This document shows positions 445 through 18,578 of a stretch of 18,578 nucleotides of DNA, one piece after another (positions within the stretch are counted from its first letter, which is position 1; each line of letters begins with the position of its first letter). The position numbers were made by a program, and so were the translations under genes. The stretch lies in the IMG/VR virus record IMGVR_UViG_2778261535_000010. One strand, given 5' to 3'. Under the pieces are notes generated by a model. That model ran no database searches and was not told the origin of the DNA. It saw only the letters and a program-made list of their open reading frames with translations. The DNA comes from a virus. Lineage: Duplodnaviria > Heunggongvirae > Uroviricota > Caudoviricetes.

Positions 445-472
445 CAGCCATTCTTTTCAGGAATAAAAGATT

Positions 473-1495: not shown

Positions 1496-1497
1496 AA

Positions 1498-2199: not shown

Positions 2200-2301
2200 A
2201 GACTCCCGCTAGCCGGGACGGGCGCGGGGGAGGCATCAACCATGCGGTTGTTGGCCGTGGAACCCGTTAGCCCGTTTCTATTGCAAAACCGAGGTACGCC
2301 A

Positions 2302-3940: not shown

Positions 3941-3942
3941 AA

Positions 3943-5085: not shown

Positions 5086-5088
5086 TCA

Positions 5089-5544: not shown

Positions 5545-5548
5545 CACG

Positions 5549-5860
5549 ATGATGAACGGAGAAACGTCACTGCTTGAAAAGCTGTTGCTTATCGGGGCCG
5601 TGATTGGCCTGGGGCAACTGATGGTCAGCAATGAGCGAATCACAACCCGCCTGCTGGTCGGGCGGATGATTCTGGGATCTGCGGTCGCACCGCTGGCCGC
5701 AATCCCGCTGCTGAAATTCCCCGATATGCCGGAACTGGTCGTCATTGGGCTGGCCTGCGCCCTGGGCATTCTGGGAAGCGCGTTTATTGAGGCCGGGTTA
5801 AAGCGCTGCCTGGATATGTATATCAAGCGATGGGGGAGCAAGCGCAATGAAACTGAGTGA
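5549..5860 (+). CDS. holin (class I-like, three predicted TM segments)
   Basis: 103 aa; tandem Met-Met start. Three hydrophobic stretches (LLEKLLLIGAVIGLGQLMV, LLVGRMILGSAVAPLAAIPLL, LVVIGLACALGILGSAFIEAGL) and a charged C-terminus (KRCLDMYIKRWGSKRNETE). Lies immediately upstream of the endolysin. Confidence 0.6.
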   Translation: MMNGETSLLEKLLLIGAVIGLGQLMVSNERITTRLLVGRMILGSAVAPLAAIPLLKFPDMPELVVIGLACALGILGSAFIEAGLKRCLDMYIKRWGSKRNETE

Positions 5861-6185
5861 AAAACAGCAACTTTTCACGGTGATGATCGCCAACCTGATT
5901 CATTTTGCCGAAGAAAAGGGTTATCGCCTGACGTTTGGCGAAGCGTACCGCACGCCGGAACAGGCCGCGCTTAACGCAAAAAAAGGGAGCGGCATTACTA
6001 ACAGCCTGCATACCCAGCGCCTGGCGGTGGATTTTAACCTGTTTATTAACGGCGATTACCAGACCGACAGCGCCGCATATCGCCCACTGGGCGAATACTG
6101 GGAATCTATCGGCGGATCGTGGGGTGGCCGTTTCAGTAAGCCGGACGGGAACCATTTCAGTCTTGAGCATAACGGGGTTCGCTGA
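5847..6185 (+). CDS. endolysin, L-alanyl-D-glutamate peptidase (peptidase M15 family)
   Basis: 112 aa; GGGGGAG RBS. Contains SLHTQRLAVDF (His-x6-Asp) and a C-terminal DGNHFSLEH His, the zinc-ligand pattern of T5-type M15 endolysins. Start overlaps the holin 3' end. Confidence 0.75.
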   Translation: MKLSEKQQLFTVMIANLIHFAEEKGYRLTFGEAYRTPEQAALNAKKGSGITNSLHTQRLAVDFNLFINGDYQTDSAAYRPLGEYWESIGGSWGGRFSKPDGNHFSLEHNGVR

Positions 6186-6568
6186 TGCGCAATTTGCTGG
6201 GTCTTTTGCTGATTCTGGTCGCTGCAATGTCAGCGGGCTGGCAGGCGCATGACTGGCACGACGCAAAGCTGCAACTCGCTGCCAGTGAAGCGGCAGAACA
6301 AACACGCCAGATTGTCGTTGAAGTGACGCAACAGTCTGGCGAAGCGCTGGAAGCAAAACTCGCGGGGCTAAAAGCCAATGAAAGGCACACGGAACGGGTT
6401 ATTCGCACAGAAATCATTAAGCCGGTTTTTAGCAACGTTTGCGCTTCTGATGATTACGTCCGGTTGTTCAACGAAAGTGCAGATCAAGCCGAACGAGAAT
6501 TATCAGGAAAACCAGCTGACACTTTGCCCGGTCACGCTGCCACGTCTGGCCGGACCGACCGGAAATGA
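6185..6568 (+). CDS. i-spanin (Rz-like)
   Basis: 127 aa; ATG overlaps the endolysin stop (TGATG). N-terminal TM segment LLGLLLILVAAM followed by a charged, probably coiled-coil, periplasmic region. Confidence 0.65.
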   Translation: MRNLLGLLLILVAAMSAGWQAHDWHDAKLQLAASEAAEQTRQIVVEVTQQSGEALEAKLAGLKANERHTERVIRTEIIKPVFSNVCASDDYVRLFNESADQAERELSGKPADTLPGHAATSGRTDRK

Positions 6569-6674
6569 CTTTGACGCGGCGCTGACAGCCTACCGGCAGA
6601 TGTATACCGACTGCGCCGCCCGACATAACGCCCTGGTGGGCATCATTCGACAACGTAAGGAATTAGCACAATGA
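6378..6674 (+). CDS. o-spanin (Rz1-like lipoprotein), +1 frame overlapping Rz
   Basis: Starts inside Rz in another frame and extends past the Rz stop. Signal peptide with a lipobox-like FALLMITSGC. The true start codon is uncertain. Confidence 0.55.
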   Translation: MKGTRNGLFAQKSLSRFLATFALLMITSGCSTKVQIKPNENYQENQLTLCPVTLPRLAGPTGNDFDAALTAYRQMYTDCAARHNALVGIIRQRKELAQ

Positions 6675-6940
6675 GTAAACCGAAAAAAATCGCCATGACC
6701 GTGGCGGGCGTAAATCTGAGCTTTGAGCCGAATAAAACCGCGTTTAACAACCTGCTTAACGAAATGACCATGACCAATAAGGTTGCCCCTATGGTGACGT
6801 ATCTGGGCCGCATTGTTGATGCCGAGTGTAAAGAGTCGCTCAACAAGCTGATGGAAGATTATCCGGGTTGCGAAATGCAGATCGTCGAGAAGGTTAACGA
6901 GATTTACTCCCCCAAACTTGAGATCGAAGTAAAAAACTGA
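6671..6940 (+). CDS. tail assembly chaperone (gpE-like), zero-frame product
   Basis: 89 aa; lies directly upstream of the tape measure gene; ends in the slippery heptamer A_AAA_AAC followed by TGA. Confidence 0.65.
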   Translation: MSKPKKIAMTVAGVNLSFEPNKTAFNNLLNEMTMTNKVAPMVTYLGRIVDAECKESLNKLMEDYPGCEMQIVEKVNEIYSPKLEIEVKN

Positions 6941-7128
6941 CGGCGCGGGTGGCGGCCATTCGCAAGAATGCGCTTGAGCAATACCTTGCCCTGCGCCGCT
7001 ACTACCTCCCGCACGAAGCCGACGACGAAGAAAGCATCGCCCGCGCCCTGTGGCTGGACGAGTATTTTGCCCAGACCCGCGCCAGCAAGACGGCGGAAGG
7101 GATAGCCATCGCATTTAACGGAAACTGA
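6671..7128 (+). CDS. tail assembly chaperone, -1 frameshift fusion product (E+E'-like)
   Basis: Slippery A_AAA_AAC at 6931-6937 in the zero frame. The -1 frame is open from 6937 to the TGA at 7126-7128 (63 extra codons, LTARVAAIRKNALEQYLALRR...IAFNGN) and has no start codon of its own. It ends 1 nt before the tape measure ATG. Confidence 0.6.
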
Positions 7129-7129
7129 T

Positions 7130-9244
7130 ATGAGCCACCTGGATTTTACCCTGAGCCTGATCGATAAGCTGACGCGGCCATTAAAAACGGCCCAGTCTTC
7201 GCTGTCTGGCTTTGCTGAAAAATCGCAGGCATCTTTTACAAAAATCGGGATCGGTGCGGCGGCTGTCTGGGGCGTGGCGCAGTCCATCGCGGGCGTGGTG
7301 GGTCCGGCATATGAGATGAACGCCGCACTTGCAGAAGTGGGTTCCAAAGGCGTGGCAGAGGACGCGCTGAAGCGTCTGTCCGGCGAAGCTATGCGATTCA
7401 GTATGCGCTACGGCAAAGGGGCCGTTGATGTGGTCCGGTCAAGCTACGCGATGAAAGGTGCAATGGCGGGCCTGTCCGATCTGGACCTGCCCCGCGTCAC
7501 CATCGCGGCCAATACCCTTGCGGCAGGCGTCAAGGCCAGCGGCGAAGAGGCAGGCGAATACATCGGCGCGATGGCGTCACGTTTCAACGCGGAGTTGTCC
7601 AGTCTGGGCCATGTGCGTTTTGCCGAAGAGCTGGCAGGGAAAACCGCGTACATGGTGCAAAACTTCGGCGTGAAAATGCAGACCATGCAGGAGCTTATCG
7701 AGGGGACGAAAAGTGCCGGTGCTGACTTTGGCGTCAGCCTGGATGAACAGTTCGCCGTCCTGGGTACGCTTTCGCGCACGCTGGGTACTGAGGCCAGCGG
7801 GATCTACGAGCAGTTTTTACGCAGCGCCCCGGCTGCCGCTGAAAAGCTGGGTATGAGCTTTGTCGATGCCACCGGAAAAATGCTGCCGATGGGCGACATT
7901 CTGCAAAAACTCCAGAGTAAATACGGGCAGAGCATTGAAGGGAACGTCAAGGCACAACAGGCGCTGGACGCCGCGTTCGGTGGCGGTGCTGACGTTATCA
8001 AAAAGCTGTACGGCCAGCAGGATAAATTAAATCGCAGTATCACCGAGCTGGGCCGAAACGACGGGATGAAACGCGCCCAGGAAATGGCCGCACGAATGGC
8101 CGAGCCGTGGGAGCGTATCAAAGCGACATTCTTTGCCATTCGCGTGGCGATTGGTAACAGGCTGATCCCTATTCTGTCACCGCTGATGAACCGTATTGCC
8201 GACGTGGGGACAAAATTTGCCCGCTGGCTGGATATGTTCCCGAATATTGCCCGCTGGCTGGGTTACATCACCCTGGGCGTGCTGTCCTTCGGGCTGGCCG
8301 GGGCGGCGGTCAATATCGTGATGGGGGTCTTTGGCTTCACCATGATGGGGCTGGCCGCAATCGCAAAAGTGCTGGGCGGTGCATGGAAACTCCTGTTATG
8401 GACGCTCAACCTGTTGCGTCCGTCCCTGCTGACGACGCGCATCGGTCTGGCCGCATTATGGATCCAGTCAAAATTGCTGGCGTTGTGGACGGGCGTCTGT
8501 CGCATCGCGCTTGCTGCATGGAATATCGCGTTAAAGGCCGGGGCCATTGCCATGCGGGTTTACGGTGCGGCGACCATGTTTGCCGGGGCTGCAATGCAAT
8601 TCCTGATGAGTCCGATCACCCTGATTATTGCCGGACTGGCGCTTCTGGCTGTGGGGGTCTGGTATGTCGTCACCCACTGGGAAGAACTGGCGGCAGCGAT
8701 CATGGATACGGCGGCTTTTGCCTGGGTGATGTCAGTCGCTGAACAGGTGGGACAGGTGTTTGCGCAGGTCTGGCAATCCATTACTGACGGCTGGGCCGTG
8801 GTGGTTGATTTCTTTGCCGGTCTTTCCCCGCTCGCCACCTTTGAAGGGTTCGCACAGACCATCGGCGGGGTATTCAGCAAACTTTTCGACGTCCTCAAAA
8901 ATACCTTTGCATCTACCTATAACTGGATTGTTGAGAAGTTAAACAAGATCCCCGGCGTCAACATCGACCTGAAAACCGTTTCGCCACCGGCAGCGGCTGC
9001 CGTTCCGGCAAACGCGGTCGTTCCTGACAGTGCTGCAGGTTCGTCGAAGCTGAACAGCCCGTCCGTGCTGACGGGGAACCGAATTAATGCAGACATCCCA
9101 CGCGGCGGCCTGATGAGTCAGGTTAAAACCGACAGCAAAACCGCTGTGGATAACCGTAAATCGTGGGGCGACACCTACATCAACGCCCCCAATGGAATCA
9201 CCCCGGCCCAGCTGGCTGAATGGCAGGAGCTTAACGCAGGATGA
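7130..9244 (+). CDS. tail tape measure protein
   Basis: 704 aa; follows the frameshifted chaperone; Ala/Gly-rich with a long central hydrophobic, helix-rich block (NIARWLGYITLGVLSFGLAGAAVNIVMGVFGF...). Confidence 0.85.
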   Translation: MSHLDFTLSLIDKLTRPLKTAQSSLSGFAEKSQASFTKIGIGAAAVWGVAQSIAGVVGPAYEMNAALAEVGSKGVAEDALKRLSGEAMRFSMRYGKGAVDVVRSSYAMKGAMAGLSDLDLPRVTIAANTLAAGVKASGEEAGEYIGAMASRFNAELSSLGHVRFAEELAGKTAYMVQNFGVKMQTMQELIEGTKSAGADFGVSLDEQFAVLGTLSRTLGTEASGIYEQFLRSAPAAAEKLGMSFVDATGKMLPMGDILQKLQSKYGQSIEGNVKAQQALDAAFGGGADVIKKLYGQQDKLNRSITELGRNDGMKRAQEMAARMAEPWERIKATFFAIRVAIGNRLIPILSPLMNRIADVGTKFARWLDMFPNIARWLGYITLGVLSFGLAGAAVNIVMGVFGFTMMGLAAIAKVLGGAWKLLLWTLNLLRPSLLTTRIGLAALWIQSKLLALWTGVCRIALAAWNIALKAGAIAMRVYGAATMFAGAAMQFLMSPITLIIAGLALLAVGVWYVVTHWEELAAAIMDTAAFAWVMSVAEQVGQVFAQVWQSITDGWAVVVDFFAGLSPLATFEGFAQTIGGVFSKLFDVLKNTFASTYNWIVEKLNKIPGVNIDLKTVSPPAAAAVPANAVVPDSAAGSSKLNSPSVLTGNRINADIPRGGLMSQVKTDSKTAVDNRKSWGDTYINAPNGITPAQLAEWQELNAG

Positions 9245-9576
9245 GTACCGAACCGTTATACATCGACCTTTTGATCACTGACGGCGATTTCACGCTGGAC
9301 AGCGGCAACGAGCCGCGCCGTTGCGATAACCGCGACAGCATCACCCAGGACATTATTCACAGCATTCTGGAAAGCGGTATCACCACCCGCCTGATCGGTG
9401 AGCGCAGCCCGACAATGCGCGGTGACGTGCTGACGCAACTGTCCTTACTGGTGGAAAGCGACGAACGTCTGGTCCCCGGCACCATATTGATCACCGAAGA
9501 AACCCTTTCGCGGTTGTATGTCACGGCGGAAACCTACGATTTCGGCCCTGTCGGTACAGAGGTTAACTATGACTGA
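9241..9576 (+). CDS. baseplate protein, possibly gp25/gpW-like wedge
   Basis: 111 aa; ATGA overlap with the TMP stop. Weak gp25-like pattern (DSITQDIIHSILESGITTRLIGER). Sits immediately before the baseplate J gene. Confidence 0.4.
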   Translation: MSTEPLYIDLLITDGDFTLDSGNEPRRCDNRDSITQDIIHSILESGITTRLIGERSPTMRGDVLTQLSLLVESDERLVPGTILITEETLSRLYVTAETYDFGPVGTEVNYD

Positions 9577-10753
9577 GAAACCCGACATTGATTTTGAAAA
9601 AGTGCTGAATGACAGCGGGATGCCCGCGACAGAGGCCGAAATTACGGCGGCATTTAAAGCCACCGTGCAGGCGGAAGGGTTCGTCACAAATACGTCGAGA
9701 ATGTCACCTTTCTGGCGGCTGATTTCGAAGATTGTCACCACGCCGGTGTTATGGCTGCGGGCGGCGCTGATCGATGTGGTTCTGCGCAATATGTTTGTCG
9801 CGACGGCCACCGGTCCAATGTTGCGCCTGCTGGCCTGGGCGGTCCATATCGTGCCTAAACCCGCCAGCGCTGCCGCTGGCGTGCTGCGGTTCTACAAGCT
9901 GAACGCGGCGGATGTGGTCGTCGTGCCAGCCGGAACACTGGTGCAAACCGAGCGTATTAACGGCGTGGTTTACGTGCTGGCCGTGAATGAAGACGTGACG
10001 CTGCCTGCCGGGGTTGAAAGCGGGCTGGTTCCCGTCACGGCGACCGGCACCGGTAGCGGCTATAACCTTGCGCCCGGCTATTACCGGATCTTACCTGTTG
10101 CGGTGGCCGGGATTGCCAGCGCGGTAAACGAGGACGAATGGCTGATTACGCCAGGGGCTAACGAGGAAAGCGACGACGAGCTGCGCGACCGGACCCGCAA
10201 CCAGTTTAATCTGGTAGGTAATTACCACTCTGACGCTATTTACCGCAGCATGATTGCCAGCGTGCTGGGCCTGAGCGTTGATCGCATTTACTTTTTGCAC
10301 GATGCCCCGCGTGGGCCGGGTACGGCAAATGCTTACCTGTTGCTGGACAGTGGCGAAATATCACAGCCCTATATTGATGCGGTTAACGACTATGTGAATA
10401 CCCAGGGCCACCACGGACACGGTGATGATCTGCAGTGTTATGCCATGCCGGAAACCAGCCACACCCTGGCGGTGACGGTCTACGTCAAAAGCGTGGAAAA
10501 CATGGAAGCGGAAGACCTGAACGCGTTAAAAACCGGTATTACTGACCTGATTCGTTGCGCGTTTCGCGAGAACGCCAATTACGACGTTAAAAAGACGCAG
10601 CCCTATTCGCGCTATTCCTTTTCGAATCTGGGCCGCGAGATCCACAAGGCTTTTCCGGTTGTCGATTCACTGCATTTTTCACTGACGGATATTGTCAGCG
10701 AACTGTCGGTCCCGCGCCTGTCAGGGTTAACGGTGGAGGTTGAAAATGACTGA
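9569..10753 (+). CDS. baseplate J-like protein (gpJ/gp47/gp6 family)
   Basis: ATG at 9569 with GAGG 7 nt upstream (the track ORF begins at 9518 without an RBS). About 394 aa. Position between the wedge and gpI-like genes matches P2 W-J-I order. Confidence 0.7.
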   Translation: MTEKPDIDFEKVLNDSGMPATEAEITAAFKATVQAEGFVTNTSRMSPFWRLISKIVTTPVLWLRAALIDVVLRNMFVATATGPMLRLLAWAVHIVPKPASAAAGVLRFYKLNAADVVVVPAGTLVQTERINGVVYVLAVNEDVTLPAGVESGLVPVTATGTGSGYNLAPGYYRILPVAVAGIASAVNEDEWLITPGANEESDDELRDRTRNQFNLVGNYHSDAIYRSMIASVLGLSVDRIYFLHDAPRGPGTANAYLLLDSGEISQPYIDAVNDYVNTQGHHGHGDDLQCYAMPETSHTLAVTVYVKSVENMEAEDLNALKTGITDLIRCAFRENANYDVKKTQPYSRYSFSNLGREIHKAFPVVDSLHFSLTDIVSELSVPRLSGLTVEVEND

Positions 10754-11339
10754 GTTTTCAACCTTGCTTGCCGGTCTGAAATTGCCGTCGTGGCTGAACA
10801 AAGGCGACCCCGCCAGGCTGTTGCGTGGCTGCGTGAAATTCTGGTCGCAGGTGTACGGGTGGATTACCTGGCCGTTAAAGCAGTTTGACCCACTGGTCTG
10901 CCCCGAACCGCTGTTAAACCTGATTGCCTGGGAACGCGACATCGTTCGGTTTAAGGGGGAGCCGCTCGACATTTTCCGCAAACGGGTGAGTTACGCATTT
11001 ATCAATGCGCAGCAGGCCGGAGAGGTGGCGGGCTTTATTGCCATTTTTGAGCGACTGGGGATTGGTTACGTTGAATTACTGGAGCGGCAGGACGGACTCG
11101 ACTGGGATGTGATTGTCGTTCGGGTGACAAACAGTCAGATTGCGGAAAATGGCGATCTCCTGCTGGAAATTATCCGTAAATATGGGCGTACATGCCGCCG
11201 TTACCAATTTGAAGTGATCACAGCCCTGCCACTGAATATCAATATCGGCTGGTATCAGGGGGAATATATTTGCTGGCCTGCCACCCTGAGTGATGTGAAT
11301 AACCAGCCCCAAATAACATACAGCGCAAGTTTGAAGTAG
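10746..11339 (+). CDS. tail protein I-like (baseplate, gpI family)
   Basis: ATG at 10746 with GGAGGT RBS; overlaps the J-like stop by 8 nt. About 197 aa, immediately upstream of the tail fiber. Confidence 0.55.
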   Translation: MTEFSTLLAGLKLPSWLNKGDPARLLRGCVKFWSQVYGWITWPLKQFDPLVCPEPLLNLIAWERDIVRFKGEPLDIFRKRVSYAFINAQQAGEVAGFIAIFERLGIGYVELLERQDGLDWDVIVVRVTNSQIAENGDLLLEIIRKYGRTCRRYQFEVITALPLNINIGWYQGEYICWPATLSDVNNQPQITYSASLK

Positions 11340-11350
11340 AGGAAAAACCT

Positions 11351-13036
11351 ATGTCACAGGCTGTTATTACAAAAGCATTTACAGAGTGGAAAGCCCAGCA
11401 GGCTATTAATAATCAGCCCGTCACGCTGGATGAATTTATTTTTGCGTATATTCCGGGGTTGGATGCTGATAAGCCGATTGATAATACCGAGACAGCACCC
11501 GCAGTGGATAAAATTGTTTATCGTCAGGTGGTGAGTAAATCCGGTGTTGTGAATGAAAACTCTGTCGTTTATTCCGTCACTATGGGGGCGGATGTGGGTG
11601 ATTTTGATTTCAACTGGATCGGTCTGGCAAATAAAGCCACCGGTACACTGGCGATGATTATTCATGCCCCGACCCAGCGTAAAATCAAAAATGCGAACGG
11701 CCAGCAGGGAAACGTTCTGGTCCGTTCCATGCTGATGGAATACAGCGGAGCCAGGGAAGCAACGGAAATTACCACCCCGGCAGAGACATGGCAGATTGAT
11801 TTTACTGCCCGGCTGGCGGCAATGGATGAACGCCAGCGCCGCGAAAATATCGATCTGTATGGCGCAGCGGCTTTTTTTGATTCGGGCTATCTGGTAGCCA
11901 AAACCGGCAATCAATTTTTTGTCACAAAGGGGGCGGGATACGTCGCCGGGTTACGTGCTGAATTGCCCGCAAACATGAATATCACTGCATCCGCGAAGCC
12001 AACAAAGGTCTGGCTTGATGTCAGCTGGACCGGGACGTTAACGAGCGAATGGGCAGTGCAGAGCAAAATCACCGTTGCCGCAGATCTTGCCGATTATGTA
12101 CTGGGCGGTGTGCAGCATTATGTCTTTGCGGTGGCGAGTATTGATGCTACCGGAAATGTCATGGACCTGCGCCCGAAAGGCACGCTGAACCACCAGGCGG
12201 CCAGTGATGCGCTGAAAAAGCATGAGCAGTCGCGAAATCACCCTGATGCCTCAATCAGCGAAAAAGGGTTTGTGCAGTTAAGCAATGCCACGAACAGCGA
12301 TTCCGAGACACTGGCCGCCACGCCAAAGGCAGTAAAAGCGGTGAATGAGAATGCGAATAAGCGCGTTCCTTCCGAACGCAAAGTGAATGGTAAGCCACTG
12401 ACGGAAGATATTGAGATTACGTCGATAACGGGTAATGCAGGGACTGCCACGAAGCTGGCTACAGCCCGCACTATAGGGGGAGTGGGGTTTGATGGTTCGG
12501 CTAACATTAATCTGCCGGGTGTAAACACTCAGGGAAACCAGAACACTACGGGTAATGCAGGGACTGCCACAAAGCTGGCTACAGCTCGCACTATAGGGGG
12601 AGTGGAGTTTGATGGTTCGGCAAACATTAATCTGCCGGGGGTAAACACTCAGGGAAACCAGAACACCACAGGTAACGCTGCAACAGCCACAAAGTTGCAT
12701 ACAGCTCGCACAATTAATGGCGTTGTTTTTGACGGTACGAAAGATATTGCTATTTCAGCAAGTGCGATTGGTTCCTACACAAAAGCGGAATCTGATGCAC
12801 GATTTCAGATAATTGTTCCTGTTTCTGGTGCGGTGGGTACTTATGCCTTCGCCCGAATTGAATCAGGTAATACCACTATTAATTTTGGTTCCACTCTGCC
12901 CGGTTCAGTACTTCGTGCAACATGTGGAGATGGCACTCTGGCCGGTAATGCTCTTGCAGGTACATGGCGATGTTGTGGAGCAACTTGGGGATCTTCCTGG
13001 TACAGTCGAAATACTGTATGGATTCGCATTGTATAA
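11351..13036 (+). CDS. tail fiber protein
   Basis: 561 aa. Contains SETLAATPKAVKAVNE and tandem KLATARTIGGVxFDGSANINL repeats typical of phage tail fibers. Followed by a tail fiber assembly gene. Confidence 0.85.
   Translation: MSQAVITKAFTEWKAQQAINNQPVTLDEFIFAYIPGLDADKPIDNTETAPAVDKIVYRQVVSKSGVVNENSVVYSVTMGADVGDFDFNWIGLANKATGTLAMIIHAPTQRKIKNANGQQGNVLVRSMLMEYSGAREATEITTPAETWQIDFTARLAAMDERQRRENIDLYGAAAFFDSGYLVAKTGNQFFVTKGAGYVAGLRAELPANMNITASAKPTKVWLDVSWTGTLTSEWAVQSKITVAADLADYVLGGVQHYVFAVASIDATGNVMDLRPKGTLNHQAASDALKKHEQSRNHPDASISEKGFVQLSNATNSDSETLAATPKAVKAVNENANKRVPSERKVNGKPLTEDIEITSITGNAGTATKLATARTIGGVGFDGSANINLPGVNTQGNQNTTGNAGTATKLATARTIGGVEFDGSANINLPGVNTQGNQNTTGNAATATKLHTARTINGVVFDGTKDIAISASAIGSYTKAESDARFQIIVPVSGAVGTYAFARIESGNTTINFGSTLPGSVLRATCGDGTLAGNALAGTWRCCGATWGSSWYSRNTVWIRIV
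12428..12750 (+). repeat. in-frame 120-bp tandem repeat inside the tail fiber gene (two near-identical copies plus a diverged third)
   Basis: Copy 1 (12428-12547) and copy 2 (12548-12667) differ at about 5 positions. From 12668 the homology continues but is diverged (GNAATATKLHTARTINGVVFDG). Confidence 0.9.
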
Positions 13037-13049
13037 TTTGGAGGTGCTT

Positions 13050-13448
13050 ATGTTTGAGAATGCAACGATTGATAACCCTCGAACCACAAATATCAATATT
13101 TATATTGATGTGGATATTCACCTGAATGATCAATCAATTACTTTTACTTCGATGCCTGACGACTCCGAAATATATAGTGTTGAGATTTATAAACGCGCTT
13201 TAAATGGCGAGTTTGGAAAAATTATAACTATTGAAAATGATGTTTTTTCGGCAAACAAACTACAAAAAGACATGTTGCAATCAAGGGCGGCTGAATCAAT
13301 TACTGTTCTTGAATATGCGGTTGAATTGAAAATGGCAACGGAAAAGGAAATGCAACTACTCAATGAATGGAAAAAATATGTAGTTTTATTAAGCCGCGTT
13401 AATTTAACAAACCCTAAATGGCCGGAGGTTCCGGGCGATGTGGCGTGA
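13050..13448 (+). CDS. tail fiber assembly protein (Tfa/gpG-like chaperone)
   Basis: 133 aa; GGAGG RBS with ATG at 13050. C-terminal NPKWPEVP motif typical of Tfa proteins. Markedly AT-rich compared with neighbouring genes. Confidence 0.7.
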   Translation: MFENATIDNPRTTNINIYIDVDIHLNDQSITFTSMPDDSEIYSVEIYKRALNGEFGKIITIENDVFSANKLQKDMLQSRAAESITVLEYAVELKMATEKEMQLLNEWKKYVVLLSRVNLTNPKWPEVPGDVA

Positions 13449-14160
13449 ATCGGTTGTAAAGATTGCTGATGATATGGGGGCGCTGGCCTGTTCCATTGTC
13501 CCCGCGCATCCCTGGGTTTACGGTCTGGGACAGAACACGGATTCAGGCGGTTATCTTAGCCCGGCCAATGCGATGGGATATCTTGCTAAAAAGCTGTTAT
13601 CCGGTGTCGGTAGCGGTGACGTCATCGTCATGATGGTGGCGGAGAATACCCACGACGCTTTTATGCAGGGACTGAATAAACTGTCCACCGTATTTCCGGC
13701 CCCGGTATTTACGCAGGTAAGCCGCATGGCCGCAGCCGCCGCAGAACTCAGCACGGTAAAAATGCAGTTGCCGGTTAAAGCCGACGTATTGCCAGCCAGT
13801 GCGCCGTTATCTGTCTCAACCAACCGGCTGGCGCTGAATGCCCAGCGGGTTGCCGCCGCTCAGCTGGCCGCCTCAGTCAGTACCACCACAACAGATCTAA
13901 AAAATCAGGTTACGGGCTTTATTCAGGAACGGGCCGGTTTGCTGGCCTCACTCAGCCAGGGACTGGACGATCTGAAAGCCGCCAGTGCGAATATTTTTTC
14001 ATTCAGTTACAGCGGGAGTTATGCCGTTGCAGCCGCTGAATTGCTGAAAGGCATCCCGCAAACAACGGCAGTGCATACCGCCGCGATGATGTTTATCGGG
14101 GATTCGTTATCTGACTTAGAGAAGATGCTACATGAGCCAGACCGCATTACTCGCGCTTGA
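13438..14160 (+). CDS. hypothetical phage protein (unassigned, Ala-rich)
   Basis: 240 aa; GGAGG RBS 9 nt upstream of ATG 13438; overlaps the Tfa stop. Phage-like G+C. No motif I can assign. Confidence 0.4.
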   Translation: MWRESVVKIADDMGALACSIVPAHPWVYGLGQNTDSGGYLSPANAMGYLAKKLLSGVGSGDVIVMMVAENTHDAFMQGLNKLSTVFPAPVFTQVSRMAAAAAELSTVKMQLPVKADVLPASAPLSVSTNRLALNAQRVAAAQLAASVSTTTTDLKNQVTGFIQERAGLLASLSQGLDDLKAASANIFSFSYSGSYAVAAAELLKGIPQTTAVHTAAMMFIGDSLSDLEKMLHEPDRITRA

Positions 14161-14674
14161 TGGTGAAGGGATCGCCATGCAAAACATGCTGGTTTCACCT
14201 TCCATGCAGTTTCAGGAGAAGGACCAGTCGGGCCAGACATCGAGCACGGCCAATGCTGAACAGGGTATCAAGGCCAAAGAGCTGCGCGTGTCGGGTCTGG
14301 TGACATTCGACGACGAAGCCGTTTTACAGCGGCTTTTCCAGCTGGCATCCGCAACCGAAGCCAGCGGCGCACTGAAAAAGTACCGCGTCGCAAATGCGAC
14401 GGCAACGGCTATCAACCTTCGTGAAGCCACGTTCACCGGCCAGATTGATGCCGTACCGCAGGAGGATCGCCTTGCCTGGCAGGTAAGTTTTACCCTGCGT
14501 GAAAAAGGCAGCGTCCCGGAAAAACGACAGGCCCGCAAAGGTAATGCGACGGCCAGCACCAAGCAAACGGGGTCAAAGGGCGCGGGTTCGGCTGCCGGTG
14601 CTGACGAGCCAGCCGACAAAATGAGCTGGTTTGAAGAAAAGGTCTTAAAGCCGGTCAACGATGCGCTGGGGTAA
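14132..14674 (+). CDS. hypothetical phage tail protein (possibly gpU-like tube initiator)
   Basis: 180 aa; alternative start at 14177 has a better RBS (GAAGGG). Assignment rests only on size and its position just upstream of the hub/spike gene. Confidence 0.35.
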   Translation: MSQTALLALDGEGIAMQNMLVSPSMQFQEKDQSGQTSSTANAEQGIKAKELRVSGLVTFDDEAVLQRLFQLASATEASGALKKYRVANATATAINLREATFTGQIDAVPQEDRLAWQVSFTLREKGSVPEKRQARKGNATASTKQTGSKGAGSAAGADEPADKMSWFEEKVLKPVNDALG

Positions 14675-14681
14675 TTAAACG

Positions 14682-16406
14682 ATGAAACCAATTAAACGCC
14701 TGTACCTTTCCTCTGATCCGGTCCATCTGATTGACTGCAATATCGTGCTGGAGCTGAACGCGTGCGGTCGGGGGTTTATTACGGCGGGGACCGAGACAGA
14801 TTACACCGGTAAAATAGTGCGTATCGATGTTGGTTATGATGGTCTGGTCCTGCGCTGGTTTACCGGGTATGTCGAGCGGTCACAGCCTGCTGATAATGGA
14901 ACATGCCGGTTGTTCGTGCGTGAGCTGGTAGGCATCTTTGATAAATTGTGGCCGTGTTCTTTCCAGCATCCAACGCTGCGCCAGATTACTGACTGGATAA
15001 GTGAGCAAAGCGGGCTGGCCGTCACAACGCCGGTCGGCGCTGCTTATGCAGATAAACCGATCCCCCACTTTACGCACAGCGGCACGGGCTATCAGCTTCT
15101 TGCCATTCTGGGCCGCGCATTTTCAGTGACGGATTATCTCTGGTATCAGCTGCCGGACGGGGATGTCTTCGTCGGCGCTGCGGATCACAGTCTTTTTGCG
15201 GGTAAACCAGTGGAGATCCCGCACGAATTTAGTCAGGCATCGGCAGGCGGTAATTCAATGGTTGTGCCGATGATTCAGAGCCTGCGCCCCGGCGTTGACG
15301 TCAACGGCCATCGGCTAAACCAGGTCCGGCTAAATAACGACGATATGGCAATCACCTGGCAGCCACGCAGCAAAGCCAACGGCCAGCCATTGCAAAAATC
15401 ACCGATTCAGCGGCAGATTGAAAACGCATTCCCGGAGCTGGCAAGCGGCCTGCATCTTCCAAAGTTCGCCAGAGTGGAAGCACCAAGCGAGGATGTATCA
15501 GGGGGGAATATTGCCGATCCATTCCGCCCGCGCTATGCCGTGGATCTCCAGCTGCTTGACGAAGACGGCAAGCCAGCCGCAAATACGCCGGTTTATTCTG
15601 CCGTTCCGCTACCTGTACCAATGGCGGGGAGCGAGTCGGGAATGTTCCAGTTTCCGCCCCCTGGCACGCTGGTTGAAGTCGGGTTCACGGAGGGGCGGCA
15701 GGATAAGCCCTTTGTGCGCCAGATTATGGCGGAGGGGCATAACCTGCCAGCGGTTAAACCCGGCGAGCAATTGCAGCAACAGCGCGATGGTGTATCGCAG
15801 CGCGTGACGGTTGCCGGAGACTGGGAACGCCAGACGGACCAGACAATTCGCGAAAACTCCATGACTCGCGAAGTCACCACCGACGAAGAGATCCGCAAAG
15901 TGGTTGTCCGTGAAACTACGGTCCAGGCAACAGATAAAACAACCGTGCTGGGCACGGCCACACTTCTGGCCGGGGCGGTGGTCCATATCAGCGAGGGTGA
16001 TTACAGTATTGGCACATCCGGCAACCTGACAGTAACCTGCAGCAAGGACAATTCCGTCAGTGTTGGCCGGAACGTGAAACGGGACGTCGCGGGCAATGTT
16101 ACAGACGACGTGAAAGGGAATGTCACGTCAAACGTCAGCGGCGCACTGACTGAAAAAATCAGCGGCATCCGCCGAAGTGTGGCCCAGGCGCAACAGTTGA
16201 TTGCCCCGGTGGTAAAACTGGGAAGCGAAGAGATTAACGTCCTGACACTACTCACTGACACCCTGGACGTGGTGAGGGTGCTGGCAGAGACTGCCGCATC
16301 ACATACTCACCCCAATACGGGGACCAGCGGGCAGGCTGCGCAGTTCACCGCAACGGCCACTAAAACCGGTACATTGAAAAGCAAATACGGCCCCCTGATA
16401 GCCTGA
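14682..16406 (+). CDS. baseplate hub/central spike protein (VgrG-like architecture; gpV-like C-terminus, possibly fused to a gpD-like N-terminus)
   Basis: 574 aa. The C-terminal region has octapeptide V-x-G repeats (DVAGNVTD / DVKGNVTS / NVSGALTE / KISGIRRS) visible as 24-nt periodicity around 16057-16170, and an H-x-H motif (SHTHP, about 16301-16309) like spike apex iron sites. It is the last gene before att, as gpD is in P2. Confidence 0.55.
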   Translation: MKPIKRLYLSSDPVHLIDCNIVLELNACGRGFITAGTETDYTGKIVRIDVGYDGLVLRWFTGYVERSQPADNGTCRLFVRELVGIFDKLWPCSFQHPTLRQITDWISEQSGLAVTTPVGAAYADKPIPHFTHSGTGYQLLAILGRAFSVTDYLWYQLPDGDVFVGAADHSLFAGKPVEIPHEFSQASAGGNSMVVPMIQSLRPGVDVNGHRLNQVRLNNDDMAITWQPRSKANGQPLQKSPIQRQIENAFPELASGLHLPKFARVEAPSEDVSGGNIADPFRPRYAVDLQLLDEDGKPAANTPVYSAVPLPVPMAGSESGMFQFPPPGTLVEVGFTEGRQDKPFVRQIMAEGHNLPAVKPGEQLQQQRDGVSQRVTVAGDWERQTDQTIRENSMTREVTTDEEIRKVVVRETTVQATDKTTVLGTATLLAGAVVHISEGDYSIGTSGNLTVTCSKDNSVSVGRNVKRDVAGNVTDDVKGNVTSNVSGALTEKISGIRRSVAQAQQLIAPVVKLGSEEINVLTLLTDTLDVVRVLAETAASHTHPNTGTSGQAAQFTATATKTGTLKSKYGPLIA

Positions 16407-16477
16407 CAAAAAGCGGCATAACCGCACACATCACCAGACACCACAGAACGCGCCACAGCAGGCGCAAATATTAAAGG

Positions 16478-16515
16478 TCGCCAACGTGCGGCCTTTCGTT
16501 CGTTCGTTCAACAGC
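16478..16515 (+). terminator. putative intrinsic terminator of the late operon
   Basis: GGUCGC/GCGGCC stem (one G-U pair) with a 6-nt loop, followed by the U-rich UUUCGUUCGUUCGUU, about 70 nt after the hub/spike stop. Confidence 0.35.
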
Positions 16516-16952
16516 GGCCCACAGCGTAAGCGACAGCAGGCAGACGGAAGCGGATCCAGGACGGAAACGGCGCTACACCGCACCCGCCTGCGCAGTTTGG
16601 ATCATAAAAATTTTGCAAAAGAAATTTTGCGCAAAGCACCCCGCCAGCCTGCGCCGCTGATGGGATTTTGCATCCTGCGGGCGTTTGCACGCTGCGCAAA
16701 GATTTGCAGCACTTTGCAAAAGTCACCGCGCAGTCAGTCGCTAACTGACTGGATAACATGATGTTTTTAAAAGGATCGTTTTGGTTTTCGTGACGATCAA
16801 AATGATTCGGTGGCATCCGGTAGTTTTCGGACGCGGATATCGTGAAGCCTTGCGCGGCGCGGGCTGGCGGCAGGTTTGCTTTGATTTGGGTTTTGCAAAA
16901 TGATGCACGAAGATTTGATAAAAGAATCTACAGCGAAGGGGGGGGAAGTATT

Positions 16953-16984
16953 AAAAAACCCCGTTTTGTGGACGGGGTTTGTTT
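16953..16984. terminator. bidirectional hairpin terminator
   Basis: CCCCGT (16959-16964) and ACGGGG (16972-16977) form a 6-bp stem with a 7-nt loop, flanked by AAAAAA on the 5' side and TTTGTTT on the 3' side. On the minus strand it is followed by six U. Confidence 0.45.
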
Positions 16985-17005
16985 GATGTGGTCAATGTGT
17001 GGACG
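16967..17005 (+). promoter_or_regulatory. candidate arm-type integrase binding sites (three direct repeats)
   Basis: TGTGGACG at 16967-16974, TGTGGTCA at 16987-16994 and TGTGGACG at 16998-17005, within 80 bp of the att core. They resemble the P2 Int arm-site consensus (TGTGGACA) as I recall it. Confidence 0.45.
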
Positions 17006-17045
17006 TTGTAAGAAATAAATCCATTTATTTCAGTAGATTACAGGC

Positions 17046-17072
17046 AAAAAATAAGCCCGTGTAAGGGAGATT
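17046..17072. other. P2-type attachment site core (prophage-host junction, attR or attL)
   Basis: AAAAAATAAGCCCGTGTAAGGGAGATT matches the 27-bp P2 att core from memory. It coincides with the 3' terminator half of cyaR. Phage-type sequence lies to the left and host genes to the right. Confidence 0.65.
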
Positions 17073-17132
17073 ACACAGGCTAAGGAGGTGGTTCCTGGTA
17101 CAGCTAGCATTTTATGGGTTATGTTTTTCAGC
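17046..17132 (-). ncRNA. cyaR: CyaR (RyeE) Hfq-dependent small RNA
   Basis: The reverse complement reads GCTGAAAAACATAACCCATAAAATGCTAGCTGTACCAGGAACCACCTCCTTAGCCTGTGTAATCTCCCTTACACGGGCTTATTTTTT, matching the E. coli CyaR sequence as I recall it, including the terminator hairpin and U tail. It lies downstream of yegQ as in E. coli. Confidence 0.85.
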
Positions 17133-17139
17133 GAAACGG

Positions 17140-17182
17140 ATGATAACCTTAATAAATGCAGCTGTATGTGATCGGTTTCTAA
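17140..17182 (-). promoter_or_regulatory. cyaR promoter with class II-type CRP site
   Basis: On the minus strand, a TATCAT -10 hexamer (17140-17145) sits about 7 nt upstream of the CyaR 5' end. A CRP-like site TTAGAaaccgaTCACA (17167-17182) is centred near -42. cyaR is known to be CRP-activated. Confidence 0.5.
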
Positions 17183-17216
17183 GAATTTTCCATCCGGGAA
17201 AAATAATCGAAATTAA

Positions 17217-18578
17217 TCACTTACCGTGGGGGTTACGCGTGGTTTCCCCGGAGAAATTACGCATCAGCAGCGCGTAATTTAGCTCAAGATCCTGCGGCAC
17301 CGGGATCCACACAGTATAACCATCGCCTGGTGCGACCGGCATAGCTTCACCTTTGGCGTTTTCCATATGCTCAAGGGTAAAGTTAATGTTGCCTTGCGGC
17401 GTCATCAGCTCAAGGCTGTCGCCAACGGAGAATTTATTTTTCACCGCTACCGCCGCGAGGTCGCCCTTGCGCTCACCGGTAAACTCACCAACAAACTGCT
17501 GGCGGTCAGAAACTGAATAACCGTATTCGTAGTTCTGATAATCGTCGTGAGTATGACGACGCAGGAAACCTTCGGTATAGCCACGATGCGCCAGACCTTC
17601 CAGAGTTTCCAGCAGGCTGGTATCGAATGGTTTGCCCGCAGCGGCATCATCGATAGCTTTACGATAAACCTGTGCGGTGCGTGCGCAATAGTAGAAAGAT
17701 TTGGTACGGCCTTCGATTTTCAGCGAATGCACGCCCATTTTGGTCAGGCGTTCTACATGGGCGATGGCGCGCAGATCTTTCGAGTTCATGATGTAAGTGC
17801 CGTGCTCATCTTCAAACGCGGTCATATACTCGCCCGGACGCTGGGCTTCTTCGATCATAAACACTTTGTCAGTTGGTGCGCCGATACCCAGCGTCGGCTC
17901 AACATTTTGCACCGGAATCGGCTCGTACTTGTGTACGATGTTGCCAACGTCATCTTCTTTCCCTTCCTGGACGTTGTACTCCCAGCGGCAGGCGTTGGTG
18001 CAGGTGCCCTGATTCGGATCGCGCTTGTTGATGTAGCCAGAGAGCAGGCAGCGACCAGAGTAGGCCATACACAGCGCGCCGTGAACGAAGATCTCTACCT
18101 CCATATCCGGCACCTGATTGCGGATCTCTTCAATCTCTTCCAGCGACAGCTCGCGAGAGAGGATCACGCGGGTCAGGCCCATTTGCTGCCAGAATTTCAC
18201 CGTCGCCCAGTTCACGGCGTTAGCCTGTACCGAGAGATGGATCGGCATTTCAGGGAAGTGCTCACGCACCAGCATAATCAGCCCTGGATCGGACATAATC
18301 AGCGCATCCGGCCCCATTTCCACCACCGGTTTCAGGTCACGGATAAAGGTTTTCAGCTTGGCGTTGTGCGGTGCAATGTTGACCACGACATAAAACTTTT
18401 TCCCCAGCGCATGGGCTTCATTAATGCCGAGCTGAAGATTTTCGTGGTTGAATTCGTTGTTGCGCACACGCAGGGAGTAACGCGGCTGGCCCGCATAAAC
18501 AGCATCTGCGCCATAAGCGAAAGCGTAACGCATATTTTTCAGCGTTCCCGCCGGGGAAAGGAGTTCCGGTTTAAACAT
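17217..18578 (-). CDS. yegQ: peptidase U32 family protein YegQ (tRNA hydroxylation protein TrhP)
   Basis: Complete 453-aa ORF; the window ends exactly at its start codon. MFKPELLSPAGTLKNMRYAFAYGADAVYAGQPRYSLRV... matches E. coli YegQ as I recall it. Has the conserved neighbourhood with cyaR. Confidence 0.85.
   Translation of the reverse strand: MFKPELLSPAGTLKNMRYAFAYGADAVYAGQPRYSLRVRNNEFNHENLQLGINEAHALGKKFYVVVNIAPHNAKLKTFIRDLKPVVEMGPDALIMSDPGLIMLVREHFPEMPIHLSVQANAVNWATVKFWQQMGLTRVILSRELSLEEIEEIRNQVPDMEVEIFVHGALCMAYSGRCLLSGYINKRDPNQGTCTNACRWEYNVQEGKEDDVGNIVHKYEPIPVQNVEPTLGIGAPTDKVFMIEEAQRPGEYMTAFEDEHGTYIMNSKDLRAIAHVERLTKMGVHSLKIEGRTKSFYYCARTAQVYRKAIDDAAAGKPFDTSLLETLEGLAHRGYTEGFLRRHTHDDYQNYEYGYSVSDRQQFVGEFTGERKGDLAAVAVKNKFSVGDSLELMTPQGNINFTLEHMENAKGEAMPVAPGDGYTVWIPVPQDLELNYALLMRNFSGETTRNPHGK

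What the first reader, a model, noticed from the sequence alone, without database searches (positions are those of the whole stretch)
12700..13448. Sharp drop in G+C across the fiber C-terminus and Tfa gene suggests an exchanged host-range cassette
Hand counts on single 60-nt lines give about 27% G+C inside the Tfa gene (13081-13140) versus about 63% in a typical upstream phage line (9781-9840). The low-GC block starts in the distal fiber coding region and ends at the Tfa stop, where the next gene returns to high G+C. This is the signature of a receptor-binding domain plus chaperone module acquired by recombination from a lower-GC phage.
Basis: seen in the sequence. Interest (0 to 1): 0.5.

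Follow-up and report, generated by a model that had tools for sequence, protein, structure and literature searches.

The report
Swapped tail-fibre tip and chaperone cassette
An E. coli prophage of the P2 family (SI7-like) has had its tail-fibre tip and matching assembly chaperone replaced by an AT-rich version from another, still unidentified phage, which is an ordinary, textbook way for phages to change host recognition.

Summary
The drop lies mainly at third codon positions: GC3 is 0.25 in the fibre tip and 0.33 in tfa, against 0.65 ± 0.06 (Fisher p = 4e-30). The GC3 change-point in the fibre ORF falls at nt 12698.

The window is the late region of an SI7-like (Irrigatiovirus, Peduoviridae) prophage of E. 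coli, integrated beside cyaR/yegQ. It matches phage SI7 without gaps at 96.7 % up to 12363 and at 95.3 % from 13415. The 1051 nt in between are unrelated.

The replaced block is therefore larger than the low-GC block, and it is composite. It holds a 40-aa-repeat shaft (12364-~12698, GC3 0.47) and a low-GC tip plus tfa unit. It ends 34 nt before the tfa stop, in the conserved WPEVPGDVA end that overlaps the next gene's ATG.

At least three cassette alleles sit on this backbone. More than 100 fibre homologues share only the N-terminal part.

No close donor was found. The nearest relatives are in Hafnia phages (tip 70-74 % aa, Tfa ≤48 %). This is a new allele of a well-known phenomenon, of low to moderate interest.

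The parts
11351..13036 (+). Tail fibre gene (561 aa), P2 gpH type. It combines an N-terminal baseplate-attachment domain, a shaft, 40-aa repeats and a distal tip.
   Evidence: ORF. Pfam PF12571 covers aa 3-157 (2.9e-31) and PF03406 covers aa 301-340 (1.8e-20). It follows the baseplate J and gpI-like genes.
11351..12363 (+). Backbone-derived N-terminal part of the fibre (aa 1-338).
   Evidence: Collinear and ungapped with SI7, about 90 % nt identity. Closest proteins are 93 % identical, from a JGI record (P0234) and Citrobacter. GC3 is 0.536.
12251..12411 (+). Left recombination junction zone, lying in and just after the conserved Phage_fiber_2 motif (…LAATPKAVKAVNENANKR…).
   Evidence: SI7 homology ends at 12363 and E. 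coli GN06156 homology ends at 12411. In 66 of 120 fibre homologues the N-terminal similarity ends at aa 340-359.
12364..13414 (+). Block with no homology to the SI7 backbone (1051 nt, G+C 0.432). SI7 has 1487 unrelated nt (G+C 0.512) in its place.
   Evidence: Pairwise blastn and ungapped comparison.
12364..12698 (+). Repeat-shaft sub-block (aa 339-449), which includes a 120-nt tandem repeat at 12428-12711. Composition is intermediate (GC3 0.47).
   Evidence: TRF reports period 120 and 2.4 copies. Copies 12428-12547 and 12548-12667 are 95 % identical. Nearest proteins are Enterobacter hormaechei fibres at 74-80 %. DNA is 75-78 % identical to E. coli tail-fibre genes, mostly on 90-120 kb plasmids.
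12698..13036 (+). Low-GC3 distal tip of the fibre (aa 450-561), the presumed receptor-binding domain. It ends …GTWRCCGATWGSSWYSRNTVWIRIV.
   Evidence: GC3 is 0.252, with the change-point after codon 449. Identity is 68.5-70 % aa to Hafnia phage yong2 and 74 % (aa 475-560) to P0291 on contig L034. There is no PDB match and no PHROG family reaches beyond aa ~502.
13040..13046 (+). Shine-Dalgarno sequence GGAGGTG for tfa.
   Evidence: Read directly from the sequence.
13050..13448 (+). tfa, the tail fibre assembly chaperone (132 aa). It has a fibre-specific N-terminal domain (aa 1-60) and a conserved helical C-terminal domain (aa 61-128).
   Evidence: Pfam PF02413 scores 63 bits against a cut-off of 22.1, covering aa 61-128 only. 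Mu TfaU 5YVQ_B residues 107-174 match at E = 2e-10. AF2 gives a helical hairpin at 66-115 with pLDDT above 90 and low confidence for the N-domain. G+C is 0.359 and GC3 is 0.326.
13415..13448 (+). Right junction. The last 11 codons of tfa (WPEVPGDVA*) are backbone-type and overlap the start codon of the next gene.
   Evidence: SI7 homology resumes at 13415 and GN06156 and Cronobacter L035 homology resumes at 13419.
13438..14160 (+). Downstream backbone gene (240 aa, phrog_1677, function unknown). It overlaps tfa by 11 nt, and G+C returns to 0.55.
   Evidence: It is 95.3 % identical to SI7.

Best explanation
The window holds the late (tail) region of an SI7-like, P2-family temperate phage. It is integrated in E. 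coli next to the cyaR sRNA gene and yegQ/trhP. Its host-recognition module has been replaced by recombination.

Shown:
- The backbone is collinear and 95-97 % identical to phage SI7 on both sides of a sharply bounded 1051-nt block (12364-13414).
- That block encodes the distal two-fifths of the tail fibre and all but the last 11 codons of the Tfa chaperone.
- The block is composite. It has a 40-aa-repeat shaft of intermediate composition. It also has a strongly AT-shifted unit (~12698-13414, GC3 0.25-0.33), made of the fibre tip plus tfa. The nearest relatives of that unit are in Hafnia phages.
- The junctions coincide with sequence motifs conserved across otherwise unrelated fibres and Tfa proteins. 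These are the Phage_fiber_2 motif, the 40-aa repeat motif, and the C-terminal WPxxP end of Tfa overlapping the next gene's ATG.

Inferred:
- Homologous or relaxed-homology recombination at these short conserved motifs, probably in at least two steps, imported a tip and its cognate chaperone together. The variable N-terminal domain of Tfa must fit the tip it helps to trimerise (the Mu Tfa model).
- The unit last resided in a phage lineage of lower G+C, probably of Hafniaceae, Yersiniaceae or other lower-GC Enterobacterales, and has not been ameliorated.
- The functional result is a changed receptor specificity.

The recombinant is viable. The same prophage (5 differences in 13.9 kb) sits in two E. 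coli backgrounds whose flanking yegQ differs by about 2 %.
For: Composition:
- z = -5.8 and Fisher p = 3.8e-30 for GC3. The change-point is at nt 12698.

Breakpoints:
- Ungapped identity to SI7 is 96.7 % over 1-12363 and 95.3 % over 13415-16902, with nothing in between.

Alternative alleles on the same backbone:
- SI7 has a 648-aa fibre and a 191-aa Tfa.
- Nineteen complete E. coli genomes at the same yegQ site have a 654-aa fibre and a 195-aa Tfa.
- SI7 and GN06156 share tfa but differ in the distal fibre.
- In 120 fibre homologues the N-terminal similarity ends in clusters at aa 340-359 (66), 370-379 (22) and 460-489 (26).
- The three fibre segments have different nearest relatives: a JGI record and Citrobacter at 93 %, Enterobacter at 74-80 %, and the Hafnia-type contig L034 at 74 %.

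Relatives of the tip/tfa unit:
- Hafnia phage yong2 matches 12671-13117 at 68 % nt, running from the tip into the first 68 nt of tfa. Identity is about 70 % aa for the tip and 41 % for Tfa.
- The next Tfa relatives are from Hafnia, Ewingella, Pantoea, Yersinia and Serratia.
- The Tfa relative P0002 lies on a 40 % G+C contig with tfa GC3 of 0.26.

Control showing the AT shift is not required by function:
- The Cronobacter prophage L035 has a homologous tip (50 % aa) and a Tfa with GC3 of 0.61 against 0.68 for its backbone.

Tfa modularity:
- Pfam and PDB similarity is restricted to aa 60-128. This matches the published model of a variable fibre-binding N-domain and a conserved C-terminal helical domain (PMC9608196, citing North et al. 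2019).

Viability:
- L003 differs from the window at 5 prophage positions and 35 host-flank positions.
- The Tfa is found on at least 25 contigs, all in this context.
Against: - No donor was found. Nothing above 50 % identity to this Tfa exists outside its own cluster among 1.84 billion representative proteins.
- No close copy exists in GTDB species genomes, IMG/VR, JGI metagenomes, GenBank phages, PLSDB plasmids or 5,426 complete E. coli genomes. The low G+C of the source and the direction of transfer are therefore inferred.
- tfa genes of related phages are also AT-shifted relative to their backbones. GC3 is 0.44 in SI7, 0.40 in GN06156 and 0.34 in yong2. Part of the dip may be a property of the circulating module pool rather than of one recent event.
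- Receptor specificity and chaperone function were not tested.
Confidence: 0.8

Rival explanations
1. The AT-richness is an intrinsic or selected property of fibre-tip/Tfa modules. Possible causes are expression tuning, H-NS binding, or a shared AT-rich module pool. On this view it says nothing about a lower-GC donor. The exchange is real, but the composition is not a transfer signature.
For: tfa is AT-shifted in every close comparator: SI7 GC3 0.44 against 0.65, GN06156 0.40 against 0.63, and yong2 tip and tfa 0.34 against 0.58. Many distant tip loci show a mild shift.
Against: The Cronobacter homologue L035 shows almost no shift, with GC3 0.61 against 0.68. The shift here is about twice as large as in SI7 or GN06156. 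It is concentrated at synonymous sites, while tip GC2 is high at 0.61. GC3 of homologous modules roughly tracks the context they sit in.
Confidence: 0.15
2. The direction is reversed. The window's cassette is the older state of this phage lineage, and SI7 and the other alleles are the recombinants.
For: Every allele differs and none can be polarised from three sequences. SI7's own cassette is also below backbone G+C, at 0.512 against 0.563.
Against: The window allele deviates most from backbone composition. It occurs in a single near-clonal prophage lineage. More than 100 homologues with the same N-terminus carry other C-termini. It is absent from all 5,426 complete E. coli genomes.
Confidence: 0.05
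3. An assembly chimera or sequencing artefact joined two unrelated phages.
For: None specific. A related metagenomic contig (L034) does look possibly chimeric downstream of tfa.
Against: The sequence is identical in an NCBI isolate assembly (L004, 100 %) and nearly identical (40 differences in 15.5 kb, none in the cassette) in an ENA metagenome assembly (L003). At least 25 contigs in all carry this Tfa in the same gene context. Reading frames are intact across both junctions, and the junctions lie in conserved motifs.
Confidence: 0.01

Closest known systems
P2 gpH/gpG (and Mu S/U, P1 S/U, lambda Stf/Tfa) tail-fibre plus Tfa modules. Their horizontal exchange between unrelated phages was described by Haggård-Ljungquist et al. 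1992 and Sandmeier 1994 (own knowledge; the phenomenon is also summarised in PMC8986868).
   Same: The gene order is the same: baseplate J, gpI, fibre, tfa. The fibre has a conserved N-terminus and a variable C-terminus. The Tfa lies directly downstream. Exchange occurs at conserved fibre motifs, and the tip and chaperone move together.
   Different: There is no invertible segment or invertase. The backbone is Irrigatiovirus (HP1/ESSI-2-like tail genes follow tfa) rather than P2 itself. This tip/Tfa allele has no close relative in any collection searched.
Salmonella phage SI7 / SW3 / SW5 (Irrigatiovirus, Peduoviridae; MK972712-14)
   Same: Identity is 95-97 % nt, collinear, over 1-12363 and 13415-16902. 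The gene content of the late region is the same.
   Different: SI7 has a 648-aa fibre with an unrelated distal part and a 191-aa Tfa. Its cassette has G+C of 0.51 instead of 0.43.
Hafnia phage yong2 (MZ516527) fibre tip and Tfa, and the related metagenomic contig L034
   Same: The tip is 68-74 % aa identical, including the GTWRCCG…WIRI(A/V) end. The Tfa is 131-132 aa with the same MF(E/D)NAxIxNPRT start. Both units are AT-shifted relative to their flanks.
   Different: The Tfa is only about 41 % identical. The yong2 backbone is otherwise unrelated at the DNA level. yong2 lacks the upstream 40-aa repeats.
Phage Mu Tfa (TfaMu, PDB 5YVQ), the two-domain chaperone model
   Same: The C-terminal domain aligns (aa 60-128 against 107-174, E = 2e-10) and is predicted to be a helical hairpin.
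   Different: The N-terminal domain has no detectable sequence similarity. Its structure could not be modelled with confidence here.

Membership tests
Tail fibre assembly protein (Tfa; Pfam PF02413 Caudo_TAP; Mu U / P2 G / lambda Tfa) | Match to the family profile above the curated threshold | tested here: met
   PF02413 scores 63.0 bits against a cut-off of 22.1, E = 4.1e-17, covering aa 61-128. PHROG tail fibre assembly families also match.
Tail fibre assembly protein (Tfa; Pfam PF02413 Caudo_TAP; Mu U / P2 G / lambda Tfa) | Conserved C-terminal helical domain like that of TfaMu | tested here: met
   5YVQ_B residues 107-174 match at E = 2e-10. AF2 predicts helices at 66-92 and 98-115 with pLDDT of 90-96.
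Tail fibre assembly protein (Tfa; Pfam PF02413 Caudo_TAP; Mu U / P2 G / lambda Tfa) | Gene immediately downstream of, and co-oriented with, the tail fibre gene | tested here: met
   The fibre stop is at 13036, the RBS at 13040-13046 and the tfa ATG at 13050.
Tail fibre assembly protein (Tfa; Pfam PF02413 Caudo_TAP; Mu U / P2 G / lambda Tfa) | Variable N-terminal domain that binds and co-varies with the fibre tip | tested here: inconclusive
   The N-domain has no Pfam or PDB match. yong2 DNA homology runs from the tip into the first 68 nt of tfa, which is consistent with co-inheritance. The AF2 model of the N-domain has low confidence. Binding was not tested.
Tail fibre assembly protein (Tfa; Pfam PF02413 Caudo_TAP; Mu U / P2 G / lambda Tfa) | Required for trimerisation and folding of the fibre | not testable with these tools
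   Needs co-expression or genetic experiments.
P2 gpH-type tail fibre | N-terminal tail-collar fibre domain plus the Phage_fiber_2 repeat, encoded after baseplate J and gpI | tested here: met
   PF12571 at 2.9e-31 and PF03406 at 1.8e-20. Upstream lie Baseplate_J (1.5e-28) and a marginal Tail_P2_I match (19.2 bits against a cut-off of 20.6).
P2 gpH-type tail fibre | C-terminal domain binds the host receptor | not testable with these tools
   Inferred from position only. There is no solved homologue, and a Foldseek search with a low-confidence model gave nothing.
Horizontally exchanged host-range (fibre-tip + chaperone) cassette | Sharp homology breakpoints inside an otherwise collinear, near-identical backbone | tested here: met
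   Breaks lie at 12363/12364 and 13414/13415 against SI7, and at 12411 and 13419 against E. coli GN06156.
Horizontally exchanged host-range (fibre-tip + chaperone) cassette | Alternative alleles at the same position in sister phages | tested here: met
   There are at least 3 alleles on this backbone. More than 100 homologues carry other C-termini.
Horizontally exchanged host-range (fibre-tip + chaperone) cassette | Composition or codon usage atypical for the backbone | tested here: met
   GC3 is 0.276 against 0.655, p = 3.8e-30.
Horizontally exchanged host-range (fibre-tip + chaperone) cassette | An identifiable donor lineage with a closely similar cassette | tested here: not met
   The best matches are 74 % aa for the tip and no more than 48 % aa for the Tfa. 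No close copy exists in any collection searched.
Horizontally exchanged host-range (fibre-tip + chaperone) cassette | Changed host range or receptor | not testable with these tools
   Needs adsorption and host-range assays.
Invertible host-range segment (Mu G / P1 C with Gin/Cin invertase) | Flanking inverted repeats, an inverted alternative S'/U' gene pair, and an adjacent invertase | tested here: not met
   Only chance-level inverted repeats were found (17-20 nt, 75-82 % complementary). No inverted fibre or tfa ORFs and no invertase appear in the ORF map.

The most novel reading that the evidence does not exclude
The tip/Tfa pair may be a so far unsampled receptor-binding specificity. It would have crossed into an E. 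coli phage from phages of a lower-GC Enterobacterales lineage (Hafniaceae, Yersiniaceae, Morganellaceae or similar) that is absent from public data. Its un-ameliorated GC3 of 0.25-0.33, together with recent spread of the prophage between E. coli lineages, would make it a natural example of inter-family host-range transfer caught early.
Probability: 0.3. Interest if true: 0.4.

Novelty: new member of a known kind. Interest (0 to 1): 0.25.

Why it matters
This is a clean, well-delimited natural example of how P2-family phages retarget themselves. The junctions map to the nucleotide in conserved fibre and Tfa motifs. Three alleles sit on one backbone at one chromosomal site. The tip and its chaperone travel together. 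This is useful as a template for engineering receptor-binding swaps in SI7-like phages or tailocins. The rare tip could be worth receptor identification. It does not change current understanding of phage mosaicism.

Tried and rejected
Donor search:
- Searches with the cassette DNA, the Tfa or the tip all failed to find a close copy. The collections were GenBank phages, complete E. coli genomes and PLSDB plasmids. They also included GTDB species genomes, IMG/VR and JGI metagenomes. The 5.8-billion protein index and an exhaustive HMMER scan of 1.84 billion representatives gave the same result. Only distant relatives turned up.

Structure of the tip:
- A monomer AF2 model had mean pLDDT of 64. 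Foldseek against the PDB gave no hit with E below 0.3. This is uninformative, as expected for an obligate trimer modelled from a shallow alignment.

Tfa N-domain:
- The AF2 model had pLDDT below 50 over this domain, so no fold search was attempted.

Alternative mechanisms:
- An invertible segment is rejected. There are no credible inverted repeats, no invertase and no alternative inverted genes.
- A diversity-generating retroelement is rejected. There is no template/variable repeat pair beyond the in-frame 120-nt tandem repeat, and no reverse transcriptase ORF.
- Internal promoters or terminators created by the AT-rich DNA were not found. The count was 0 against 3.1 and 1.3 expected.

Amino-acid composition as the cause of the dip is rejected. 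The drop is at third positions, and tip GC2 is high at 0.61.

Long minus-strand ORFs across the fibre repeats (for example 12278-12700) are treated as artefacts of the repeats.
Full report
OBSERVATION

Positions 13081-13140 have 26.7 % G+C and positions 9781-9840 have 63.3 %. In a 300-nt sliding profile the lowest value in the whole window, 0.34, is at 13051-13350.

tfa (13050-13445) has G+C of 0.359. All 396-nt windows of the phage backbone average 0.563 ± 0.035 with a minimum of 0.439, so z = -5.8.

The shift is mostly at synonymous sites:
- GC3 is 0.252 in the last 111 codons of the fibre and 0.326 in tfa.
- Nineteen backbone genes give 0.646 ± 0.056.
- Pooled counts are 64/232 against 3052/4660, Fisher p = 3.8e-30.
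- The tip's GC2 is high (0.61), so amino-acid composition does not explain the drop.

A maximum-likelihood change-point for GC3 along the fibre ORF falls after codon 449, at nt 12698. G+C is back to 0.52-0.58 from 13441. Milder troughs exist at 11100-11700 (fibre N-terminus, shared with SI7) and at 16800-17250 (the att/cyaR intergenic DNA).

WHAT THE REGION IS

Megablast shows that positions 1-16902 are the late region of an SI7-like phage (Salmonella phages SI7/SW3/SW5; Irrigatiovirus, Peduoviridae). The remainder is E. coli chromosome. It carries the CyaR sRNA gene at 17049-17134(-) and yegQ/trhP at 17217-18578(-).

The window is 100 % identical to an E. coli assembly (GCA_020296055.1; L004).

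The gene order is:
- tape measure (7130-9244)
- DUF2590
- baseplate J
- a gpI-like gene
- tail fibre (11351-13036, 561 aa; PF12571 plus PF03406)
- tfa (13050-13448, 132 aa; PF02413 at 63 bits)
- three further baseplate/spike genes

BREAKPOINTS

Against SI7 the window aligns without gaps at 96.7 % over 1-12363 and at 95.3 % over 13415-16902. The 1051 nt between these stretches (G+C 0.432) have no counterpart. SI7 has 1487 unrelated nt there (G+C 0.512).

The left break lies in the conserved Phage_fiber_2 motif (…LAATPKAVKA…). The right break lies at the start of TGGCCGGAGGTTCCGGGCGATGTGGCGTGA, which encodes WPEVPGDVA*. These are the last codons of tfa, and they overlap the ATG (13438) of the next gene.

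The exchanged DNA is therefore larger than the low-GC block on the left. On the right it stops 34 nt short of the tfa stop.

A FAMILY OF ALLELES

Nineteen of 5,426 complete E. coli genomes carry the same backbone at the same yegQ site. They have a 654-aa fibre and a 195-aa Tfa. Their homology to the window breaks at 12411 and resumes at 13419. SI7 and these E. coli prophages share tfa but differ in the distal fibre, so exchange also happens between the tip and the chaperone.

Among the 120 best fibre homologues (E. coli, Citrobacter, Salmonella, Enterobacter; 461-776 aa), the N-terminal similarity ends in clusters at aa 340-359 (66), 370-379 (22) and 460-489 (26). The C-terminal Pfam content varies.

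The three parts of this fibre have different nearest relatives:

| Fibre segment | Nearest relative | Identity (aa) |
|---|---|---|
| aa 1-338 | JGI record P0234 and Citrobacter | 93 % |
| aa 339-450 (40-aa repeats; 120-nt tandem repeat at 12428-12711) | Enterobacter hormaechei | 74-80 % |
| aa 451-561 | P0291, on a Hafnia-type contig | 74 % |

WHERE THE LOW-GC UNIT COMES FROM

The only DNA match in GenBank phages is Hafnia phage yong2. It matches 12671-13117 at 68 %, spanning the tip and the first 68 nt of tfa. Protein identity is about 70 % for the tip and 41 % for Tfa.

An exhaustive HMMER scan of 1.84 billion representative proteins found nothing above 50 % identity outside the Tfa's own cluster. 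The next hits (41-48 %) are from Hafnia, Ewingella, Pantoea, Yersinia and Serratia.

No close copy was found in any of these:
- GTDB species genomes
- IMG/VR
- JGI metagenomes
- PLSDB plasmids
- complete E. coli genomes

The relatives do sit in lower-GC DNA than the 56 % backbone. The yong2 locus is 47.7 %, with tip and tfa GC3 of 0.34. The P0002 contig is 40 %, with tfa GC3 of 0.26.

Two controls frame the inference:
- tfa is AT-shifted in SI7 (GC3 0.44) and GN06156 (0.40) too, so some offset is general.
- A Cronobacter ESSI-2-like prophage with a homologous tip (50 % aa) shows almost no shift, 0.61 against 0.68, so low GC is not functionally required.

The donor's low G+C is therefore likely but not demonstrated.

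MECHANISM

Pfam and PDB similarity of the Tfa is confined to aa 60-128 (Mu TfaU 5YVQ_B, E = 2e-10). AF2 predicts a confident helical hairpin there. The N-terminal 60 residues are unique.

This fits the published two-domain model: a variable N-domain binds the fibre tip and a conserved C-domain drives trimerisation (PMC9608196, citing North et al. 2019). A new tip therefore needs its own Tfa N-domain, which explains why they move as one unit. The conserved Tfa C-terminus and the conserved fibre motifs offer short homologies for recombination.

The likely history is inferred. A repeat shaft was joined at the Phage_fiber_2 motif. The low-GC tip/tfa unit was joined within the third repeat copy on the left and within the WPxxP end of tfa on the right. 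This preserved translational coupling to the next gene.

The recombinant is functional. An ENA metagenome contig (L003) carries the same prophage with 5 differences in 13.9 kb. Its host flank shows 35 differences in 1.6 kb, which implies recent lysogenisation of distinct E. coli lineages. All of the at least 25 contigs carrying this Tfa show the same context.

ALTERNATIVES EXCLUDED

- An invertible G/C-type segment: no credible inverted repeats, no invertase.
- A DGR: no reverse transcriptase and no template repeat.
- An assembly artefact: independent assemblies agree.
- An amino-acid composition effect: the drop is at GC3.

COMPARISON AND NOVELTY

Exchange of fibre C-termini together with Tfa genes among P2, Mu, P1, lambda and relatives has been known since the early 1990s. 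It is routinely reported for Peduoviridae (for example PMC8986868). This case is a new allele with unusually clear boundaries and an unusually strong composition contrast, and its source is unsampled. It does not reveal a new mechanism.

Interest is 0.25. Novelty is 'new member of a known kind'.

Noticed in passing
window 17049-17134 (-), and 16955-16985: A complete CyaR/RyeE sRNA gene (Rfam, 100.7 bits) lies between the prophage end and yegQ/trhP. Host homology starts at about 16955-16963, next to a hairpin (AAAAACCCCGTTTTGTGGACGGGGTTT). The phage therefore integrates just beyond cyaR. The G+C trough at 16800-17250 is this att/intergenic region.
   Followed up: partly
window 16611-16620, 16713-21, 16891-16900: TTTGCAAAA occurs at three sites, two of them as the palindrome TTTTGCAAAA, within 350 nt of the prophage right end. 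Zero of 200 shuffles reach this count. These may be integrase arm-type or regulator binding sites.
   Followed up: partly
L005/L006 8752-9717 (-), corresponding to window ~16407-16955: Nineteen complete E. coli genomes with the same prophage family at the same site carry an AbiH-family abortive-infection gene between the last tail gene and cyaR. The window and SI7 lack it. This is a second variable (moron) slot at the prophage end.
   Followed up: partly
L003 versus window 3050-18578: The ENA metagenome copy differs at 5 positions in 13.9 kb of prophage, and its tape-measure gene is called as two ORFs. It differs at 35 positions in 1.6 kb of host yegQ flank. This indicates the same phage in two E. 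coli lineages.
   Followed up: yes
L034 12776-14864: A metagenomic contig carries an SI7-like late module (71.6 % nt to the window) and a yong2-type tip and tfa. Directly after tfa it continues into a second, P2-type sheath/tube/TAC_7 set. It is either a natural hybrid at the cassette or an assembly chimera through the shared module.
   Followed up: partly
window 12428-12711: A 120-nt (40-aa) in-frame tandem repeat is present in 2.4 copies, and the first two copies are 95 % identical. This suggests recent internal duplication that lengthened the fibre shaft. The long minus-strand ORFs here (for example 12278-12700) are artefacts of the repeat.
   Followed up: partly
window 11400-12363: The backbone-derived N-terminal part of the fibre is clearly more diverged from SI7 (83-96 % per 150 nt, about 90 % overall) than the rest of the late region (about 97 %). 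It also has lower GC3 (0.54). The fibre N-terminus may itself be exchanged among Irrigatiovirus-like phages.
   Followed up: no
L002 4778-5323 (-), L032 1174-1668 (-): In Hafnia phage yong2 and in the contig of the closest Tfa relative, a hexapeptide-repeat acetyltransferase gene lies on the opposite strand directly after tfa. It may be an O-antigen-modifying moron. The window has no such gene.
   Followed up: no
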